Source: an uncultured Gammaproteobacteria bacterium (GTDB taxonomy: Bacteria; Patescibacteriota; Patescibacteriia; Magasanikbacterales; JBBTQS01). From it: a DNA stretch of 64,000 bases. Shown in pieces: positions 35,422-52,416 of the stretch. A model generated the notes under the pieces. The model saw only the letters and a program-made list of their open reading frames with translations. It did not search any database and was not told the origin of the DNA. The position numbers and the translations under genes were made by a program. The stretch covers positions 848,864-912,863 of the forward strand of contig OZ246400.1 of NCBI GenBank assembly GCA_965230935.1, written 5' to 3'. Within the stretch, counting starts at the first letter, position 1; the number at the start of each line of letters is the position of its first letter.

Positions 35422-36381
35422 TCACTCGCCAGGACAGGTGACGACCTGGTTGAACGATTCGCTCCCGCACGAGTAGTCGTCGCAAACCGTCAGGGTGATG
35501 GTGAACTCGCCGCACTGCACGAACTCGACCGTGGCGTAGGTCTCGGTGTCGTACTTGATCAGCGGGGACTGCACGTCGGCCTCGACCGCCGTGACCTCCC
35601 ACTGGTAGCTGTCCACCATGCCGAAGTGGTCGGTGCTGGAGCCGGACTTGGTCCCGTCGAGGCTGATGTGCTTGAGCGTGTCGATGGCGATCGACTGCGG
35701 CTCGTTGATCAGGTCGATGGGGTTCCAGCTCTGGCTGTACGCCATGGCCTTGATCCGGGCGGTGGGCGCCGGCGCCTGGGTGGCGTAGCCACCGAGGCTG
35801 AGCTCGTAGGTGTGGTTCTCGATCTCAGCCGCGTGCGCCGTGGCCTCGATCGTGAGCACGCCGTAGCGGTACTCAGTGAAATCCACGTCCAGCTCGAGCT
35901 CCTCGTGCGTCTTGGGCTCGAACACGGTCGGGATGGCGCTCTTGTGGCCGGCCTCGATGGTCTGGAACCGGTTCTTGGTCGCCACATCGAAGTCCGCCTC
36001 GCCGTCGCCGTACACCACCACGTCGATCACCTCGACGTCCACGCTGTACTCGCACCCGTTGTGCACCTGGATCATGCGCTGAGTCGCGCCGCCCAGGTAC
36101 GTATCGGGGAACTCGTACGTCGCAGGGATGGTGATGCACTTGGACAGCGCCGCCGCCTCCACGTCCTGCTCGTTGTCGCTCGTCTCGTCGGACCCAGCCA
36201 GCTCGGCCGGCGGCCCCTCGGGCTCACCGTGCTCGCCGAAGCCGCAGTCGCCCTTGTAGATCTCGGCGACCTCCCAGCCGCGCTCGATCGTGGGGTCGGA
36301 CTCGGCCATGCAGCCGATCTGCGGGGTGGCAGCGATGAAAAGGACGAAGATGAGCGACGCGTTGTTGATAACCCGCTTCAT
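35422..36381 (-). CDS. High-GC secreted lipoprotein of unknown function (319 aa, Asp/Glu-rich, three Cys pairs)
   Basis: Signal peptide with a lipobox (FIAATPQIGC) and a GGAGGC RBS. About 65% GC, in sharp contrast to its flanks. The antisense ORF at 35626-36552 is compositional noise. Confidence 0.7.
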   Translation of the reverse strand: MKRVINNASLIFVLFIAATPQIGCMAESDPTIERGWEVAEIYKGDCGFGEHGEPEGPPAELAGSDETSDNEQDVEAAALSKCITIPATYEFPDTYLGGATQRMIQVHNGCEYSVDVEVIDVVVYGDGEADFDVATKNRFQTIEAGHKSAIPTVFEPKTHEELELDVDFTEYRYGVLTIEATAHAAEIENHTYELSLGGYATQAPAPTARIKAMAYSQSWNPIDLINEPQSIAIDTLKHISLDGTKSGSSTDHFGMVDSYQWEVTAVEADVQSPLIKYDTETYATVEFVQCGEFTITLTVCDDYSCGSESFNQVVTCPGE

Positions 36382-36554
36382 GAGAATGCCTCCGTTGCTT
36401 ACTGTCTCTTACTGTTGCGCTCAAACGCCGGCACCTGCCGACTCGTACTTGGGGTAAACCCGTTCCGTAGGGAATACATTTACTGTTTTTGGAAAATGCC
36501 CTCCTTACGAAGCGTTTTCTTAAACAACGTAAAATCAACTCGAAATAACTGAGA

Positions 36555-44951: not shown

Positions 44952-44980
44952 TTGACAAAAGCACCAAAATGTGTTATAGT
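44952..44980 (+). promoter_or_regulatory. Near-consensus promoter TTGACA-N17-TGtTATAGT upstream of island 2
   Basis: Read directly from the sequence. Confidence 0.55.
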
Positions 44981-45006
44981 CTTTTGTTCTTTTCATGTGC
45001 TTTTTG

Positions 45007-45097
45007 CGCGAGTTGTGTAGAGGAGGGGTCAGTAGATTGGCTCAAATATTCAAAGGAGGCCTGCAATCTACGACAGCAGTTCTCTGCACAACTCGCG
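45007..45097 (+). ncRNA. 91-nt structured leader element: 16-bp outer stem (one G.U) enclosing an 8-bp inner stem, with the SD-like AAGGAGG exposed in the apical region
   Basis: cgcgagttgtgtagag pairs with ctctgcacaactcgcg; gtagattg pairs with caatctac. Read directly from the sequence. Confidence 0.4.
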
Positions 45098-45144
45098 TAA
45101 GAAGTCTGGTGCTTGGTCTGAAACCCAAACGTTGGAGGAAGAGG

Positions 45145-45303
45145 ATGCCTTTGAACAACCCATTGATGGTCACCTGCGGGAACCGTCGCTGTCGCGCGCA
45201 CGTGGCGCTGCTGTACATGCGCGTGCCGTGTACCTCGGTCCGATTGTATCGCTCATACCTATGGGAGATACTGAGGATGTTATTTACAAATCGTGTAGAA
45301 TAA
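45145..45303 (+). CDS. Possible 52-aa Cys-rich small ORF in the leader
   Basis: Good RBS (GGAGGAAGAGG then ATG). Translation is MPLNNPLMVTCGNRRCRAH...; there is no other support. Confidence 0.2.
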   Translation: MPLNNPLMVTCGNRRCRAHVALLYMRVPCTSVRLYRSYLWEILRMLFTNRVE

Positions 45304-45481
45304 TCAGGTATACCTGTACGAATCAGCTGTCTATCTCTGAGGTGCAACGTCGCATCTTGAGCTCTAAGCAATTGAGCGTGCAGGTATGCACACATCGATG
45401 ACCTTGGAGGGTCCGATGATTTTTTCCGTTTTGACCACTTTGGCCACTATCAGCAACCCCAACGACTCCGAGGAGGGAGCC

Positions 45482-47170
45482 ATGAGCGACGACAAGAAGA
45501 GCAAGAAGAAGTCGCCGCCGGCCCCGGCGGAGGCGAACGAGGGCGATGCGAAGCGCAAGTACGAGCCGGGTGACGGGCCCTACGAGCGCGTTCACGCGGA
45601 CGTCATCGGCTCGATGGAGGCGCAGTACTGCTGCAATCCTTTCGACCAGGCCGACGCGTGTGACTTCACCGGCGGTCCGGACGAGCTGACGTTGCCGAGC
45701 TTCAAGGCGCTCAACAGCAGCATCAGCCGGGTGCACGGGCTCAAGCGCGGGTTCTTCCCGGGTGACGAGGCCATCTACGCCCGTTGCCCGCAACACGCGC
45801 ACGAGGTCCGGTACGGCAACCGGACGATCCGCGAGACCTTCAAGTACACGGCCGATCGTTGGGCCGGTAAGGGTCGGACCCCGAGCACCTGGATGGCGCA
45901 GCCGCTGCCGCACCCCGAGGCCTTCAATAAGCACCCGTACTGCACTCCGTGCAGCGGGAGCTGCGGCGGCCTGTGGCTCGAGACCAACCTGTACGCCCCG
46001 CAGCCCGAGGCGCTCGTGGAGCAGCTGGAGGACGTCGAGTCCACCGGCGCGCTCACGCGGGAGCACTTCGGCGCGCATCTGCTGTGCAAGCGGTGCGTGG
46101 ACGCTGACGCGGTCGAGCAGGGGACCCTCGTCGAGTTCGCCACGATCGTGGCGGCCTTGGGTTGGGAGCCGCGGGAGTACGTGCCCGAGGCGCTCGATCT
46201 CGAGGGGTTCGAGGGGACGCAGGTCACGGTTGAGCACCCGCAGCTCGAGGTCTCGCAGAAGCTCCAGGCCGTGGTTCGTTCGACTCACACGTCGTTCGGG
46301 GTGTTCGCCCGCATCGTGGATGACGGACGTGACGCCCTGTTGCGTTGGGAGGACGTCAACGCGGACTACAACGTGGGTGACGTGATCGACATCTGGATCG
46401 CGCGGCTGCACTGCAAGACGGGTGAGGACGGCGAGTCGGATCGCCTCTTCATCTGGGCGGCGGACACCAAGCCCGTGCTCTTGGCGGACGTCAAGTCCGG
46501 CCAGGAGTTCGATGGCGAGGTGGCCTCCCACGCGCCCTTCGGCATGTTCGTGCGCATCGGTCCGGCTCTGCCGGCTGGTGTCGTGCACAAGAGCGTGCTG
46601 AGCGGCCGTTCGCGCGACGACTTCCCGGTGAACACGTTCGTCCGGGTCATGGTCAGCGACGTGGACCACAAGCGTTCTCGACTCAACCTCGTGTTGGTCG
46701 AAGACGTGGAGGGAAGCAGAGCGGTCCAGGACTGGAAGGCGCAGGCGCCGGGAGCGGAGGACGTGGTCTCGGTCGACCAGGAGGTGGGGAAAGGTAAGAC
46801 CCCCACCAAGGTCGGCCTGACCATGGTTCCGCCCAAGTCCGAGCAGCCCAAGTCCAAGAAGTCCCGGTTCGTCCCCAGGCGCCGCACGACGTACGTGGTG
46901 GGTCCCAAGCCCGCCGCTGCGCAGCAGCGTGAGGAGGTCGAGGCGCAGCTCGCCGATGCCGCCAAGGTGTTCGGTGAGGCCGAGCACATCCAGAAGACCG
47001 GTACCTACGGGGCCGGATCCAAGGACAGCATCGGTCGCTCGCTCGAGGGGCGCAAGGCCGGTAAGGCCAAGCGCTCGAAAGCCGAGGAGATCAAGGATCG
47101 GACGCTCAAGGTGTTCGGCGACCTCTTCAACGTCCGCCAGGGCAAGGGCAAGAAGGGCAAGGGCAACTGA
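45482..47170 (+). CDS. High-GC 562-aa protein: N-terminal Cys/His-rich region, three S1/OB-like RNA-binding domains and a Lys/Arg-rich tail
   Basis: GAGGAGGG RBS 6 nt upstream of the ATG. One canonical S1 motif (GQEFDGEVASHAPFGMFVRIGPALPAGVVHKSVLS) and two degenerate ones. About 66% GC with GC3-rich codons. The antisense 622-aa ORF is noise. Confidence 0.7.
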   Translation: MSDDKKSKKKSPPAPAEANEGDAKRKYEPGDGPYERVHADVIGSMEAQYCCNPFDQADACDFTGGPDELTLPSFKALNSSISRVHGLKRGFFPGDEAIYARCPQHAHEVRYGNRTIRETFKYTADRWAGKGRTPSTWMAQPLPHPEAFNKHPYCTPCSGSCGGLWLETNLYAPQPEALVEQLEDVESTGALTREHFGAHLLCKRCVDADAVEQGTLVEFATIVAALGWEPREYVPEALDLEGFEGTQVTVEHPQLEVSQKLQAVVRSTHTSFGVFARIVDDGRDALLRWEDVNADYNVGDVIDIWIARLHCKTGEDGESDRLFIWAADTKPVLLADVKSGQEFDGEVASHAPFGMFVRIGPALPAGVVHKSVLSGRSRDDFPVNTFVRVMVSDVDHKRSRLNLVLVEDVEGSRAVQDWKAQAPGAEDVVSVDQEVGKGKTPTKVGLTMVPPKSEQPKSKKSRFVPRRRTTYVVGPKPAAAQQREEVEAQLADAAKVFGEAEHIQKTGTYGAGSKDSIGRSLEGRKAGKAKRSKAEEIKDRTLKVFGDLFNVRQGKGKKGKGN

Positions 47171-47258
47171 GACCTGGTAGAGGCCAGGCACTACACGACA
47201 ACAACAACTGGTTTTGGGGCGGCGCGGACAACGGAGTAACTTCCCGCGTTTGCGTCGC

Positions 47259-47308
47259 CCCTGTCCAATAGTGCAGCTCAGTATACTGAGAGATACTATT
47301 GGGCAGGG
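47259..47308 (+). promoter_or_regulatory. 50-bp near-perfect palindrome (14-bp arms flanking the self-complementary CTCAGTATACTGAG), immediately upstream of the RBS of the next gene
   Basis: Read directly from the sequence. Operator-like. Confidence 0.35.
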
Positions 47309-47326
47309 AAGACAAGGAGGGCCATC

Positions 47327-48001
47327 TTGAAGAGTTTTTCCTCTTTTCGTCTGGTTCGGCGAAGAGGGTTTCGATGGTCAGTGCTGCTTGTCATGCTGGT
47401 CATCTTCATCTTGATTTTTGTCCCGTTGGAGGTGGCACCTATGACGACTACGCCGGAACATGTGGTGAGCTGTGATGCGCCCAGCAAGGTCGTCGTCAGT
47501 TTCACTCAGGAGCAGATGCGCCAACAGGTGAGCCGGGTGTTTCCGATCAATTTGCCTGAGGTGGTGCGCATGGTGGACGTGGTGCTGCACGATCCATCGA
47601 TCACCTTGAACCAGATCAGCGCCAGCACAGTCACACTGGAGCTCGGCGCAACGTTGGTGGTGAGCACGCCATTGCCTGGTGTTCCGGAAGGGCGGTATCG
47701 TGCAACGATCAGCGCCACCGGATCGTTGGTGTACGGCAATGTGCACAAGGCCGTGTACATCAGTGAGTTTGCCATCACGCAGCTCACGCTCAGCGGACGT
47801 CTTGCGCATGTTCAGGACTCGACGCGCTTGCGCGCGTATGTCCAGGAGGTGTTGCAACAGCAGGTGCTGAGTAATGTGCCGCTGTACCGGACAAGTGAGG
47901 CTCAACTCGCCACGATCGCACCAAATGCGGCTGTGGTACAGGCTGCACTCACCCCCAGTGGGGAGGTGCACATTGGTCTGAGCTGGGATGAGCACCGCTG
48001 A
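47327..48001 (+). CDS. DUF1439 (YceB-like) family protein with signal peptide; TTG start
   Basis: AAGGAGGG RBS 7 nt upstream of the TTG. Basic-hydrophobic N-terminus. Resemblance to the DUF1439 pattern. About 58-60% GC. Confidence 0.55.
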   Translation: MKSFSSFRLVRRRGFRWSVLLVMLVIFILIFVPLEVAPMTTTPEHVVSCDAPSKVVVSFTQEQMRQQVSRVFPINLPEVVRMVDVVLHDPSITLNQISASTVTLELGATLVVSTPLPGVPEGRYRATISATGSLVYGNVHKAVYISEFAITQLTLSGRLAHVQDSTRLRAYVQEVLQQQVLSNVPLYRTSEAQLATIAPNAAVVQAALTPSGEVHIGLSWDEHR

Positions 48002-48028: not shown

Positions 48029-48065
48029 CCGCGCGAGCAAACTGCACGCGCGGCTTTCGAATTTG
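48029..48065 (+). terminator. GC-rich hairpin terminator ending island 2 (gccgcgcg...cgcgcggc followed by tttcgaattt)
   Basis: Read directly from the sequence. Confidence 0.45.
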
Positions 48066-48129: not shown

Positions 48130-48414
48130 ATGGCTAAAGGAATTACTAAGTCTCAACTTATGAATGAGTTGGGTGAAAAGTGGGGTGTCAGCAAAAAAGA
48201 GGCTGCTGAAATGCTTGAAGCATTAGTGCAACTTGCATACCACCACGCAAAGACTGATGGGGAAATGATGATCCCTGGTCTTGGGAAGCTGGTAAAAGCA
48301 CACCGTAAAGCACGTATGGGTCGTAACCCAGCAACCGGTGAGCAAATTCACATCCCTGCTAAGACTGTGGCAAAGTTCCGTTTAGCAAAGGCCGCAAAAG
48401 ACGCAATTCTCTAA
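48130..48414 (+). CDS. hup: HU/IHF family DNA-binding protein
   Basis: 94 aa; GFGKF-like arm (IPGLGKLVKAHRKARMGRNPATGEQI). Confidence 0.9.
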   Translation: MAKGITKSQLMNELGEKWGVSKKEAAEMLEALVQLAYHHAKTDGEMMIPGLGKLVKAHRKARMGRNPATGEQIHIPAKTVAKFRLAKAAKDAIL

Positions 48415-48491: not shown

Positions 48492-48914
48492 CTACGACGT
48501 TGGTGCTGAATCACCTGTCGAGTCATCTGCCGGAGAAGATGGTTCCGGAGGTGAGGCCGGGGCACTTGGGGTTGGTGTTTCAGTAGCTGGTGTTGAAGGG
48601 GCTGCAGGTGCACTTCCTTCGTGTTGAGATTTCTTGAGTGCATCCTTAAGGTTTTTTCCGGCCTTAAACTTGGCTACTTTAGTAGGATTGATGGTAATTT
48701 TTTCACTTGGATTTTGTGGGTTCACCCCAATACGACCTGCACGAACACGTGCGGAGAACGTACCAAATCCAGCAAGAACCACCTCACCGTTCATTTTAAG
48801 GGTATCAGTGGTGATACTCATAAAGGCCTCAACCATATCTTCGGCCTCTTTTTTGCTCACACCAACTTTGGCGCTAATTGCATCGGCTAATTCTGCTTTA
48901 TTCATGTTCGTCAC
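48492..48914 (-). CDS. HU family DNA-binding protein with a Pro/Ala/Ser/Thr-rich acidic C-terminal tail
   Basis: HU core (GFGTFSARVRAGRIGVNPQNPSEKI) plus a roughly 45-aa PAST-rich tail. Confidence 0.85.
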   Translation of the reverse strand: MTNMNKAELADAISAKVGVSKKEAEDMVEAFMSITTDTLKMNGEVVLAGFGTFSARVRAGRIGVNPQNPSEKITINPTKVAKFKAGKNLKDALKKSQHEGSAPAAPSTPATETPTPSAPASPPEPSSPADDSTGDSAPTS

Positions 48915-51364: not shown

Positions 51365-51513
51365 ATACTGAGTTTTAGGATTGATAATATGTTCAAACTA
51401 TACTAGTATCATCAATACTACTCAAGACAAGTCATGACGGATGGTGCGTGTCCTATATTTAGGGTAGGCATGGTCCGTTATACAGCCACGGGTTGGTTGG
51501 AGGAGTACCTCAG

Positions 51514-52416
51514 ATGATAATTGAAGTCGGCCCAGACGGGGGGAGCGTAAAGCATCCTCCTCCTGCTGGCAGCAGCGAAGACCGGCGGCGTCGTGGCCGT
51601 AGCAGAGGTCGACGCGGTGGTCGGCGAGGAAAAGGAACAGGAGGTTCAAAACTCGATTCGTCAAATAGGGCCTCGGGTGGTGCAGACCCTCCTAGGCTAG
51701 TCGTAAGGGGGAAAGAACCACCATCGGATAGTCCTCCCGACGAGTCAGTGTTACTGGCCGCACAGTTGATGGAGCTTGTAGAGGGCTCTTTAGACTCGAG
51801 CGGGTTGCCAGGCTTGCGGGAATTTGATCCTGAGTTGAGCTCAGAGGATCGCGAGGAGTTGCGTCAACGGTTTCGAGAGGTCGTGGCCAAGTTGTGCGCG
51901 CACGTGGATCAGTTGCAGCTTCACCAGCTGGCGCTCCAGCCAGATGTCGGTGGACCGCTTCGCGAGGTGCGTCTATGCTTGCTCGGCTGGATGGATCTTG
52001 CGAGTGCTCGACGCAAAGCGGTGTATGCGGCGCTTGATCGCGCAATACTCGCCTTGATCGCGCAAGAGGAGAGCGACCCAAAGGAGTCACTTGGACGTAC
52101 CCAGCGTCGGCGGCGTGAGCGACGTTCACGGATTGCACGTCAAGTGCGACAGCTTCGCTTGCGCCTGGAATCTATCCATCCCGGCAAGGATGGTATGAGT
52201 TTTCAGGAGTACGATCTTGTGCGTCCGGCCCTTGAAGGGCAAATTCGTCGATTGGCTGAAGTTCGAGATTTGAGACGCAACAGACGGGCACAGACCCTCT
52301 TTGCTCATCTGCTCGAGACTCTGCCTATGTGGCGCGGGCTTCCAAGAGCAGAACGACGAGTAGTGCTCTATGAGCTCAGACGGCTTGAGAGGCTGTTCAC
52401 GGACTCAGACTCGTAG
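51514..52416 (+). CDS. High-GC hypothetical protein (300 aa; Arg/Gly-rich N-terminus, Arg/Leu-rich helical remainder)
   Basis: GGAGGAG RBS 7 nt upstream of the ATG at 51514. About 60% GC; the antisense ORF is noise. No recognisable domain. Confidence 0.55.
   Translation: MIIEVGPDGGSVKHPPPAGSSEDRRRRGRSRGRRGGRRGKGTGGSKLDSSNRASGGADPPRLVVRGKEPPSDSPPDESVLLAAQLMELVEGSLDSSGLPGLREFDPELSSEDREELRQRFREVVAKLCAHVDQLQLHQLALQPDVGGPLREVRLCLLGWMDLASARRKAVYAALDRAILALIAQEESDPKESLGRTQRRRRERRSRIARQVRQLRLRLESIHPGKDGMSFQEYDLVRPALEGQIRRLAEVRDLRRNRRAQTLFAHLLETLPMWRGLPRAERRVVLYELRRLERLFTDSDS

What the first reader, a model, noticed from the sequence alone, without database searches (positions are those of the whole stretch)
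45482..47170. Unrecognised protein architecture: N-terminal Cys/His cluster, three S1/OB-like domains and a basic tail
One canonical S1 motif (FGMFVRIG...GVVHKSVLS) and two degenerate S1-like repeats follow a roughly 200-aa region with at least nine Cys and several His (CCNPFDQADAC, CPQHAH, CTPCSGSC, CKRC). A Lys-rich C-terminus (KGKKGKGN) follows. This suggests a zinc-dependent RNA-binding protein; I do not know the combination from characterised families.
Basis: partly seen in the sequence, partly recalled or inferred. Interest (0 to 1): 0.6.

Follow-up and report, generated by a model that had tools for sequence, protein, structure and literature searches.

The report
Orphan GC-rich two-S1-domain RNA-binding gene
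A real but publicly mis-annotated gene in a tiny candidate-phyla (Magasanikbacteria-like) bacterium encodes a likely RNA-binding protein with two S1 domains, an orphan cysteine/histidine-rich front end and a basic tail. Its extreme GC-rich codon usage marks it as one of a few compositionally alien, fast-changing genes in this lineage.

Summary
The ORF 45482-47170 (+), 562 aa, is real. GC at codon position 3 is 0.85-0.97 along its whole length, against 0.31-0.47 for about 65 host genes. The 622-aa antisense ORF held in a public protein collection is a GC artefact.

All the Cys/His motifs and the KGKKGKGN end are present, and the Cys clustering is non-random (P about 0.0003). There are two S1 domains, not three (aa 254-326 and 334-405). 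This rests on Pfam, a custom profile and an AlphaFold model (pLDDT 83) that best matches the D3-D4 pair of ribosomal protein bS1.

The N-terminal 250 aa and the C-terminal 150 aa match nothing. I searched Pfam, NCBIfam, PHROGs, PADLOC, PDB, 1.84 billion representative proteins, and six-frame scans of genomes, metagenomes, phages and plasmids. It is not RNase E/G, Tex, PNPase or bS1.

The gene sits with a DUF1439 membrane-protein gene in a roughly 3-kb unit between the LCP (LytR-family) gene and HU. That slot is variable. Close relatives carry other GC-rich, CxxC-containing genes there, most with basic tails.

Best reading: a cytoplasmic single-stranded-RNA binder with a putative zinc module. 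Zinc binding, the RNA target and the gene's origin are untested.

The parts
44952..44980 (+). Near-consensus sigma-70-type promoter (TTGACA, 17 nt, TG-TATAGT) in the AT-rich host-like spacer next to the divergently oriented LCP (LytR-family) gene
   Evidence: 11 of 12 hexamer matches with an extended -10. Six sites were found against 1.0 expected in shuffles. Function is inferred, not shown.
44988..45481 (+). Roughly 490-nt putative 5' leader of intermediate GC (about 0.50), strongly structured, including a 23-bp-arm hairpin at 45000-45104. No convincing coding signal and no Rfam family.
   Evidence: MFE -187.8 kcal/mol, z = -4.0; inverted repeat I2; no Rfam match better than E 0.17; no GC3>GC1>GC2 pattern in its ORFs. 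The transcription start is inferred from the promoter.
45482..47170 (+). Protein-coding gene, 562 aa plus stop: the S1-domain protein
   Evidence: intact ORF, RBS GGAGGG, GC1/2/3 of 0.66/0.45/0.895 with uniform periodicity; codon usage unlike host genes.
45482..45592 (+). aa 1-37: Lys-rich, Pro/Ala-rich N-terminal stretch, probably disordered
   Evidence: Sequence. AlphaFold single-sequence run gives pLDDT below 50 with no secondary structure. Weak evidence.
45593..46096 (+). aa 38-205: orphan Cys/His-cluster region (C50, C51, C60; C102-x2-H105-x-H107; H151-x2-C154-x2-C157-x3-C161; H195-x3-H199-x2-C202-x2-C205). Putative zinc-binding module or modules.
   Evidence: Searches give positions. One search shows the clustering is non-random (joint P 0.00025). 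Searches find no family, PDB or database match. Metal binding is not tested.
46097..46240 (+). aa 206-253: acidic linker with predicted helix, no match
46241..46459 (+). aa 254-326: first, degenerate S1/OB domain (S1-A). The FG-F core and the VGD turn are kept. The usual Gly of the first strand is Ser, and the His position is Arg/Trp.
   Evidence: 27.4 bits against an S1 profile built without the query; in-register alignment to tandem S1 pairs; five strands at aa 260-325 with pLDDT about 90. Pfam alone gives only weak OB hits (E 0.045).
46481..46696 (+). aa 334-405: second, canonical S1 domain (S1-B), with FGMFVRIG, VVHKS and D-x3-R
   Evidence: PF00575, 29.6 bits above GA 22; 42.1 bits; five strands at aa 342-405. 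Foldseek top hits are bS1 domain pairs.
46727..47167 (+). aa 416-562: Lys/Arg-rich C-terminal tail (net +14) with two predicted helices and a repeated KVFGE/KVFGD motif 48 aa apart, ending in KGKKGKGN
   Evidence: helices 480-506 and 533-548, pLDDT 54-68. repeat D18. No database match.
47171..47326 (+). Intergenic spacer with two stable hairpins and no T-run, so probable read-through into the next gene
   Evidence: z = -4.1; palindrome I1; no terminator called here.
47327..48001 (+). Downstream gene, 224 aa from a TTG start behind AGGAGG: DUF1439 (YceB-like) protein with an N-terminal membrane anchor. GC3 is 0.70.
   Evidence: PF07273, 40.6 bits above GA 25.9; hydropathy 3.0 at aa 19-37. GC3; only itself found among 5.8 billion clusters.
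48029..48065 (+). GC-rich hairpin (GCCGCGCG / CGCGCGGC) followed by TTTCGAATTT. Weak terminator-like end of the unit, where GC falls back to host level.
   Evidence: Read. Not called by the scan because the T-run is too weak. GC profile.
45323..47191 (-). 622-aa antisense ORF: not a gene but a by-product of high GC. It is nevertheless the product recorded for this locus in the public protein collection.
   Evidence: GC1/2/3 of 0.87/0.45/0.65, the mirror image of the sense frame; this exact sequence is in the collection from an NCBI contig of 931,061 bp, while the sense protein is not; the antisense fragment is also the one called on the ENA contig.

Best explanation
The finding is a genuine, intact gene for a cytoplasmic nucleic-acid-binding protein.

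Shown:
- It has two tandem S1 OB-fold domains that resemble the mRNA-binding D3-D4 pair of ribosomal protein bS1.
- These are preceded by a roughly 250-aa lineage-specific region whose nine cysteines and several histidines form non-random CxxC/CxxH pairs.
- They are followed by a roughly 150-aa Lys/Arg-rich tail.
- There is no signal peptide or membrane segment.
- The gene lies behind a near-consensus promoter and a long structured leader, and is followed by a DUF1439 membrane-protein gene.

Inferred:
- The S1 pair binds single-stranded RNA.
- The basic tail adds non-specific electrostatic affinity.
- The Cys/His clusters fold one or two small zinc modules (most plausibly C154/C157 with C202/C205, and C50/51/C60 with C102/H105/H107). 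These would give an extra RNA or protein contact.
- The protein would then act as an RNA chaperone or an mRNA/ribosome-associated accessory factor, not as a nuclease.

Origin: the gene is compositionally alien (GC3 0.90 in a genome with GC3 about 0.38). It occupies a variable slot between the LCP (LytR-family) gene and HU in a Magasanikbacteria-like CPR genome. It belongs to a small set of GC-rich, rapidly diverging accessory genes of this lineage. Whether these come from an unsampled high-GC donor or are kept GC-rich by some local process is open.
For: - Coding and strand.
- Two S1 domains. AlphaFold pLDDT 83.4 with two five-stranded barrels. Foldseek top hits are bS1 domain pairs: 7a05 D3-D4 at E 1e-9, 9gut, 9guv.
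- S1-B keeps the Phe-Phe-His and Asp/Arg positions that contact RNA in characterised S1 domains. The sequence is; the role of those residues is from established knowledge (Bycroft et al. 1997) and was not tested here.
- Cys clustering.
- Basic tail and lack of hydrophobic segments (maximum hydropathy 1.1).
- No catalytic or other domain in Pfam, NCBIfam, PHROGs, PADLOC or PDB.
- Transcription-unit signals.
- Host identity and conserved flanking synteny with variable slot content.
- Alien codon usage shared with a second gene in the window.
- The island-host junctions are reproduced at 100% identity in four independent assemblies of two sequencing runs.
Against: - No homologue covers the N- or C-terminal parts, so neither conservation of the Cys/His ligands nor purifying selection can be shown.
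- The full-length AlphaFold run without an alignment was uninformative (pLDDT 36).
- S1-A is degenerate and may not bind RNA.
- Expression is not shown. A gene with almost no A/T-ending codons may be poorly translated in this host.
- All public short-read contigs break inside the gene (at 45475, 45561, 46544, 46531, 46562 and 46864). Continuity across 46531-46562 therefore rests on a 14-nt overlap plus the window's own assembly. The in-frame S1-B domain spanning the break argues for a true join.
- S1 folds also bind proteins or act as ribosome anchors, so RNA binding is probable but not certain.
Confidence: 0.6

Rival explanations
1. Passenger gene from a recent horizontal transfer. The roughly 3-kb unit (leader, S1 gene, DUF1439 gene) was taken up from a high-GC bacterium. 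This could have happened through the competence machinery (ComEC and DprA are in the window). The unit has no adapted role in the recipient. The protein's function is whatever it was in the donor, and it may be barely expressed.
For: - GC3 of 0.895 against 0.31-0.47 for host genes, with GC1 and GC2 also shifted.
- Codon usage of high-GC bacterial type: CpG o/e 1.17, GCG/CCG/ACG frequent.
- DUF1439 is a family I know mainly from Proteobacteria (own knowledge, not tested here).
- More distant relatives lack these genes at the slot.
- DprA and ComEC-like genes are present.
Against: - No donor-like homologue of the N- or C-terminal parts or of the DUF1439 protein in 15 billion proteins or in six-frame scans. 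An unameliorated recent transfer from a sampled group should leave close relatives.
- No integrase, tRNA or flanking repeats.
- Close relatives carry other GC-rich genes in the same slot.
- A second GC3-extreme gene has a syntenic but only 27%-identical counterpart in a relative whose neighbouring TopA is 71% identical. That does not look like a single recent event.
Confidence: 0.2
2. Interaction effector. The protein belongs to a lineage-specific arsenal of fast-evolving GC-rich genes (Cys-cluster/basic-tail proteins and lipoproteins). The episymbiotic CPR cell would use these against or on its partner organism. This one would bind partner RNA or ribosomes.
For: - Variable slot with different GC-rich, CxxC-containing genes, most with basic tails, in relatives.
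- Extreme divergence of slot genes: 27% identity while the adjacent LCP (LytR-family) protein is 86% identical and HU differs at one residue.
- Neighbours are envelope proteins (DUF1439 with a membrane anchor; a GC-rich lipoprotein elsewhere in the window).
Against: - No secretion signal on the S1 protein.
- No secretion-system genes seen in the unit.
- Statistical tests for homology between its Cys region and the slot proteins of relatives failed.
- The lifestyle and partner of this organism are unknown.
Confidence: 0.1
3. A divergent substitute for ribosomal protein bS1, or another ribosome-bound S1 protein of the host itself.
For: Best sequence and fold matches are bS1 domain pairs. The basic tail is typical of ribosome-associated proteins (own knowledge).
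Against: - Scores are 15-24 bits against bS1 equivalog cut-offs of 368-878 bits.
- Only two S1 domains.
- A core ribosomal protein would not have alien codon usage, or be missing from close relatives' syntenic slot.
- Whether the genome has its own rpsA lies outside the window and is unknown.
Confidence: 0.05
4. Not a real feature: either the antisense 622-aa ORF is the true gene, as recorded in the public collection, or the ORF is an assembly chimera of two GC-rich fragments.
For: The public collection holds the antisense product. All short-read contigs break inside the gene.
Against: - The GC3>GC1>GC2 pattern holds only for the + frame, and the antisense frame shows its mirror image.
- A Pfam-significant S1 domain is read in the + frame and spans the break point.
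- Both halves have identical codon usage.
- Each half is joined at 100% identity to the host genes that are neighbours in relatives.
Confidence: 0.03

Closest known systems
Ribosomal protein bS1 (RpsA), central domain pair D3-D4
   Same: Tandem S1 OB folds joined by a short linker. Best sequence hits and best fold hits (7a05, 9gut, 9guv). Likely single-stranded RNA binding.
   Different: bS1 has four to six S1 domains with N-terminal ribosome-anchoring domains, and no Cys/His region. It scores hundreds of bits on its equivalog models. Here there are only two domains and 15-24 bits, with alien composition and no orthologue in close relatives' slot.
RNase E/G
   Same: An S1 domain plus a short Cys motif. 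CTPCSGSCGG recalls the CPxCxGxG zinc-link (my recollection of the motif, a lead only).
   Different: No match to the RNase E/G catalytic core in Pfam or NCBIfam at E up to 1. The Cys motif is N-terminal, not C-terminal, to the S1 domain. No DNase-I-like or 5'-sensor region.
Tex / YhgF
   Same: The C-terminal S1 domain of Tex aligns to S1-B (3bzc, 2oce).
   Different: None of the Tex N-terminal, YqgF or HhH domains is present. The match is one domain only.
Exosome cap protein Csl4 (S1 domain plus Cys4 zinc ribbon) and other OB-plus-zinc-module RNA binders such as Lin28
   Same: Same design principle: an S1/cold-shock-type OB fold combined with a small Cys-ligand module in one RNA-binding protein (own knowledge).
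   Different: No sequence match to these families. The order of modules is reversed and the Cys region is far larger (about 170 aa).
Single-S1 general stress/regulatory proteins (CvfD / YabR / GSP13)
   Same: Stand-alone S1 RNA binders without catalytic domains. Weak hits: NF040579 at E 0.0096; 2k4k and 9a5a.
   Different: Those are about 110-130 aa with one S1 domain. The score here is 16 bits against a cut-off of 117.

Membership tests
S1 RNA-binding domain (Pfam PF00575, OB fold) | Sequence match at or above the Pfam gathering score | tested here: met
   aa 337-403: 29.6 bits against GA 22, E 9e-7; 30.8 bits on the isolated segment.
S1 RNA-binding domain (Pfam PF00575, OB fold) | Five-stranded antiparallel beta-barrel | tested here: met
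   AlphaFold with a 25-sequence alignment, pLDDT 83.4. Strands at aa 260-325 and 342-405. Foldseek probability 1.00 to S1 structures. This is a prediction, not an experiment.
S1 RNA-binding domain (Pfam PF00575, OB fold) | A second copy (aa 254-326) is also S1 | tested here: met
   Below Pfam threshold, but 27.4 bits against an S1 profile built without the query. Aligned in register to tandem S1 pairs and folded as an OB barrel.
   No further domain at domain E up to 100 with all filters off. No strands outside the two barrels in the model.
S1 RNA-binding domain (Pfam PF00575, OB fold) | Binds single-stranded RNA | not testable with these tools
   Needs a binding assay.
Ribosomal protein bS1 (TIGR00717 and NCBIfam equivalogs) | Full-length score above the equivalog cut-off; four to six S1 repeats | tested here: not met
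   15-24 bits against cut-offs of 368-878. Two repeats only.
RNase E/G | Catalytic RNase E/G core flanking the S1 domain | tested here: not met
   No RNase_E_G hit in Pfam or NCBIfam at E up to 1, or up to 10 on the separated segments.
Tex/YhgF | Tex N-terminal, YqgF-like and HhH domains before the S1 domain | tested here: not met
   PDB and Pfam matches cover only the S1 domain.
PNPase / RNase II-R | Phosphorolytic (RNase PH) or RNB catalytic domains | tested here: not met
   Only the S1 part aligns.
Zinc-ribbon / treble-clef zinc modules | Two CxxC/CxxH knuckles that together ligate one zinc | tested here: inconclusive
   Suitable pairs exist (C154-x2-C157 with C202-x2-C205; C102-x2-H105), and the clustering is non-random. 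No zinc-ribbon model matches, there is no confident structure, and there are no homologues to show ligand conservation.
GC-rich Cys-cluster/basic-tail proteins in the same slot of related genomes (unnamed; L014 6084-6614, L015 6649-7155, L015 5477-5953, L018 653-1318) | Detectable sequence homology to these proteins | tested here: not met
   BLASTP E above 0.4. hhalign probability 0.1%. An HMM of the five relatives scores the window protein 0.3 bits, and about 3% of shuffles do as well. Only the position, the composition and a motif seen by eye (C-G-x6-polar-hydrophobic-hydrophobic-A/M-P ... CxxC) are shared.
DUF1439 (PF07273), for the neighbouring gene | Pfam gathering score | tested here: met
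   40.6 bits against 25.9.

The most novel reading that the evidence does not exclude
This lineage of CPR bacteria keeps a distinct class of accessory genes: this S1 fusion, small CxxC/basic-tail proteins and lipoproteins. They sit in conserved chromosomal slots and diverge far faster than their neighbours, yet hold GC3 at 0.8-0.95 in genomes whose other genes sit near 0.4. Ordinary transfer followed by amelioration does not predict that. It would imply one of two things. One is a gene-targeted, GC-biased diversification or conversion process. The other is a continuing flux of genes from an unsampled high-GC partner organism. The products, including this RNA binder, could serve the symbiont-partner interaction. 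Gene callers trained on the host composition systematically read such genes on the wrong strand, so the class would be largely invisible in protein databases.
Probability: 0.15. Interest if true: 0.75.

Novelty: new variant of a known kind. Interest (0 to 1): 0.45.

Why it matters
Taken alone, this is one more orphan S1-domain protein in a candidate-phyla genome, of modest interest. Two things raise it.

- **Annotation blind spot.** For this gene, and for a second GC-rich gene in the window, public gene calls record the antisense ORF. The true proteins are therefore absent from the protein collections. Similar genes in related genomes may be hidden in the same way.
- **An unexplained composition puzzle.** A handful of genes with nearly no A/T-ending codons occupy fixed slots in several related reduced genomes. 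They stay GC-rich while their protein sequences change about as fast as anything in the genome. This bears on how ultra-small symbionts acquire and maintain accessory genes.

If the Cys/His region proves to be a new zinc-binding RNA-recognition module, that would add a new partner domain for S1.

Tried and rejected
- **Full-length relatives.** None found by:
  - the word-indexed search of 5.8 billion clusters;
  - exhaustive phmmer against 1.84 billion representatives, which gave 109 hits, all within aa 244-440;
  - six-frame pattern scans of GTDB genomes, JGI metagenomes and IMG/VR, which gave only 30%-identical S1 segments in Geobacter and soil contigs;
  - tblastn against phage and plasmid records.
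- **Known families.** RNase E/G, Tex, PNPase, bS1, CvfD, phage families and defence systems are all rejected.
- **Structure of the whole protein without an alignment.** Uninformative, pLDDT 36.
- **Homology between the Cys region and the slot proteins of relatives.** A shared motif is visible by eye, but the statistics do not support it.
- **Mobile-element hallmarks.** No tRNA, no meaningful flanking direct or inverted repeats, no integrase, no plasmid similarity at DNA level.
- **The leader as a known RNA or a small gene.** No Rfam family and no coding periodicity.
- **Translational selection as the cause of the codon bias.** Rejected, because EF-Tu, EF-G and the ribosomal-protein genes in the window have GC3 of 0.31-0.47.
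- **A green-algal source.** The PSRP-7 and chlororibosome hits hinted at this. Rejected on codon usage (CTC above CTG, CCG above CCC, mixed CGN, compared with algal usage from my own knowledge), and because the hits are generic S1 matches.
- **Literature.** Searches for the sequencing project and for GC-rich gene classes in Patescibacteria found nothing relevant.
- **DUF1439 co-occurrence.** Impossible to test, since the neighbour matched only its own cluster in the word-index search and nothing in plasmid records.
Full report
**1. What is at the coordinates**

- The window is about 45% GC, but 45400-47200 is 63-72% GC and 47300-48000 about 58%.
- An uninterrupted ORF runs from an ATG at 45482 (GGAGGG four bases upstream) to a stop at 47168-47170, giving 562 aa.
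- High GC leaves long ORFs open in several frames, including a 622-aa ORF on the opposite strand (45323-47191).
- Codon-position GC settles the frame. The + frame has GC1/GC2/GC3 of 0.66/0.45/0.895, the classic pattern of a high-GC coding sequence. The antisense ORF shows its mirror image, 0.87/0.45/0.65.
- In 180-nt windows, the third-position phase stays at 0.85-0.97 from about 45450 to 47170 and drops at both ends. The Cys-rich front, the S1 region and the basic tail are therefore all translated as one protein.
- In-frame ATGs at 45386 and 45416 cannot be excluded as starts. Their ATT/TTT/GTT/ACT codons are absent from the rest of the gene.

**2.

- Every quoted motif is present: CCNPFDQADAC (aa 50-60), CPQHAH (102-107), CTPCSGSC (154-161), CKRC (202-205), FGMFVRIG (353-360), VVHKS (367-371) and KGKKGKGN (555-562).
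- Nine of ten Cys lie in aa 50-205, and two CxxC pairs occur. In 100,000 shuffles the joint probability is 0.00025.
- The last 123 residues carry net charge +16.
- The canonical S1 domain passes Pfam's curated threshold.
- The claim of three S1/OB domains does not hold.
  - An S1 profile built from 48 domain sequences that excluded the query finds two domains (aa 254-308 at 27.4 bits; aa 334-404 at 42.1 bits). It finds nothing else even with filters off and a domain E-value limit of 100.
  - phmmer alignments to multi-S1 proteins place aa 244-402 in register with tandem S1 pairs.
  - An AlphaFold model of aa 237-424, using a 25-sequence alignment, has pLDDT 83.4. It shows two five-stranded barrels at aa 260-325 and 342-405.
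  - Foldseek against the PDB puts bS1 domain pairs first: 7a05 (D3-D4) at E 1e-9, then 9gut and 9guv. Tex, PNPase, eIF2-alpha and similar S1 modules follow, each matching a single domain.

**3. What it is not**

- All matches in Pfam, NCBIfam and PDB are confined to the S1 region, at scores far below any equivalog cut-off.
- The isolated N-terminal 242 aa and C-terminal 144 aa match no Pfam family at E up to 10 and no PDB chain better than E 0.5.
- PHROGs and PADLOC give nothing.
- Exhaustive phmmer against 1.84 billion representative proteins gave 109 hits, the best at 4e-17. Every aligned stretch lies in aa 244-458, and almost all within 244-440.
- The nearest hits are generic S1 or bS1-like proteins, for example from Chloroflexota.
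- Six-frame scans found only S1-level similarity, or nothing. These covered GTDB species genomes, JGI metagenomes, IMG/VR, phage records and plasmid records.

**4. A caveat on the absence of homologues**

- The exact sense protein is not in the 15-billion-protein collection, but the antisense 622-aa translation is. It comes from an NCBI contig of 931,061 bp, presumably the source of the window.
- On the ENA contigs the caller also took the antisense frame for the 5' part.
- Homologues in related low-GC genomes may be mis-called in the same way, and would then be invisible to protein searches.
- The DNA-level scans I could run detect only close relatives.

**5. Assembly support**

- Contigs from two sequencing runs (ERR2281800 and ERR2281801; MEGAHIT assemblies at ENA and Logan assemblies) are 100% identical to the window. 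They join the island to the host genes on both sides.
- All of them end inside the gene: at 45475, 45561 and 46544 from the left, and at 46531, 46562 and 46864 from the right.
- I assume the breaks reflect poor coverage of 65-70% GC sequence, or population heterogeneity. I could not test this.
- The join across 46531-46562 rests on a 14-nt overlap plus the window itself.
- Three things argue for a true join:
  - The Pfam-significant S1-B domain (46481-46696) is read in frame across the break.
  - The two halves have the same codon usage.
  - Their outer neighbours are adjacent in related genomes.

**6. Context**

- The LCP (LytR-family) neighbour's best named hits are from Candidatus Magasanikbacteria and other Patescibacteria.
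- The gene order RNase Y - HU - HU - [slot] - LCP (LytR-family) - Der - Pth - DprA - FolC - TopA - RelA is conserved.
- The slot content differs between genomes.
  - In two distant relatives (48-49% identity in the LCP protein) it holds a 179-197-aa membrane protein.
  - In three closer relatives (62-68%) it holds other GC-rich genes (GC3 0.72-0.89, while the housekeeping genes beside them have GC3 0.35-0.41). These encode small proteins with CxxC pairs, most with Arg/Lys-rich tails. One ends in KKGKKQN.
- Two of these, each adjacent to the LCP gene in its own genome, are homologous to each other at only 27% identity (E 1e-8 to 1e-9). Their LCP neighbours are 86% identical and their HU proteins differ at one residue.
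- The window protein shows no statistically supported homology to any of them, although a similar motif layout can be seen by eye.

**7. The unit**

- A near-consensus promoter (TTGACA, 17 nt, TG-TATAGT; 44952-44980) lies in the AT-rich spacer.
- A roughly 490-nt leader of intermediate GC follows. It is strongly structured (z = -4.0) and has neither an Rfam match nor a coding signal.
- After the S1 gene comes a 156-nt spacer with two stable hairpins and no T-run.
- Next is a DUF1439 gene (47327-48001; TTG start behind AGGAGG; membrane anchor; GC3 0.70).
- A weak terminator-like hairpin at 48029-48055 follows, after which GC returns to host level.
- There is no tRNA, integrase or flanking repeat.

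**8. Composition**

- Across the window, GC3 is bimodal. About 65 genes fall in 0.31-0.47.
- Three genes are outliers: the S1 gene (0.895), DUF1439 (0.70) and a lipoprotein gene at 35422-36381 (-) (0.95).
- The S1 and lipoprotein genes share the same extreme usage: ATC, TTC and TAC at 100%; AAG, GAG and CAG at 95-100%; CTC at or above CTG; CpG o/e of 1.2.
- Highly expressed host genes are not GC3-rich, so translational selection is not the cause.
- The lipoprotein gene has a syntenic counterpart downstream of topA in a relative (GC3 0.84). It is only 27% identical, while TopA is 71% identical. More distant relatives have TopA directly followed by RelA.
- I infer that the synonymous sites of the neighbouring genes are saturated at this divergence. 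If so, simple ancient transfer should have ameliorated. Simple recent transfer should have left recognisable donors. Neither fits well, and I leave this unexplained.

**9. How it most likely works**

- Shown: two S1 OB folds, the second with the canonical aromatic, His and Asp/Arg positions. There is also a non-random Cys/His cluster, a highly basic and partly helical tail, no export signal, and no catalytic domain.
- Inferred: a cytoplasmic binder of single-stranded RNA.
  - The S1 pair would supply the binding groove, as in bS1 D3-D4.
  - The tail would supply electrostatic affinity.
  - The Cys/His clusters would supply one or two zinc-stabilised modules for an additional contact.
- The design resembles OB-plus-zinc-module RNA binders such as Csl4 or Lin28, without being related to them.
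- The target RNA, zinc binding and expression are all untested.

**10. Verdict**

The count is wrong, with two S1 domains and not three.
- The protein is a new variant of a known kind, an S1-domain RNA-binding protein with orphan flanking regions.
- Its alien composition, its variable-slot context and its wrong-strand annotation are the more interesting aspects.
- Interest 0.45.

Noticed in passing
window 35422-36381 (-): A second gene with extreme GC3 (0.95) in the 45% GC window: a 319-aa predicted lipoprotein (signal peptide with an IGC lipobox; weak PKD-like hit, E 4e-4). The public caller took the antisense ORF 35626-36552 (+) instead. A syntenic homologue in relative L014 (14935-15786, GC3 0.84) is only 27% identical, while the adjacent TopA is 71% identical. 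More distant relatives have TopA directly followed by RelA.
   Followed up: partly
L014 6084-6614, 3955-4248, 368-694; L015 6649-7155, 6131-6493, 5477-5953; L018 653-1318: Related Magasanikbacteria-like genomes carry GC-rich genes (GC3 0.72-0.89) while the housekeeping genes beside them have GC3 0.35-0.41. Most lie in the same slot between the LCP (LytR-family) gene and HU. They encode small orphan proteins with CxxC pairs, most with Arg/Lys-rich tails. Two of them are 27% identical to each other, while the flanking LCP proteins are 86% identical.
   Followed up: partly
window 45323-47191 (-) and 35626-36552 (+): For both GC3-extreme genes the gene calls attached to public contigs take an antisense reading. 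For the S1 gene the full 622-aa antisense ORF is in the protein collection and the true protein is not. For the lipoprotein gene, the ENA contig carries the 308-aa antisense call (35626-36552). This may be a systematic blind spot for GC-rich genes in low-GC genomes.
   Followed up: partly
window 45475-46864: Every public short-read contig that reaches the island ends inside the S1 gene: at 45475, 45561 and 46544 from the left, and at 46531, 46562 and 46864 from the right. Three of these ends fall at or within a few bases of the stretch that encodes FGMFVRIG. The cause (GC-dependent coverage loss or strain heterogeneity) was not determined.
   Followed up: no
window 44988-45481 (+): A roughly 490-nt non-coding leader lies between a near-consensus promoter and the S1 gene. 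It is strongly structured (z = -4.0; a 23-bp-arm hairpin at 45000-45104). It has no Rfam match and no similarity to relatives. It may be a regulatory RNA element.
   Followed up: partly
window 51493-52416 (+): A 307-aa Arg-rich orphan (GC 0.58; GC1 0.71) lies between truB and infB. It has no Pfam or NCBIfam match. I would have expected nusA at this position (own knowledge). A more distant relative (L022) has truB and infB directly adjacent, so this looks like another lineage-specific, GC-elevated insertion.
   Followed up: no
window 48130-48414 (+) and 48492-48914 (-): Two convergent HU (Bac_DNA_binding) paralogues lie next to the slot. The second carries a roughly 45-aa Pro/Ser/Thr/Ala-rich acidic C-terminal extension. 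The first is nearly invariant across relatives that share only 68% identity in the LCP (LytR-family) protein.
   Followed up: no
window 46964-46978 and 47108-47122: The basic tail of the S1 protein contains a repeated motif, KVFGE / KVFGD, 48 residues apart. Each copy lies in a predicted helix, and 14 of 15 nucleotides are identical. It may be a short internal duplication or an interaction motif.
   Followed up: no
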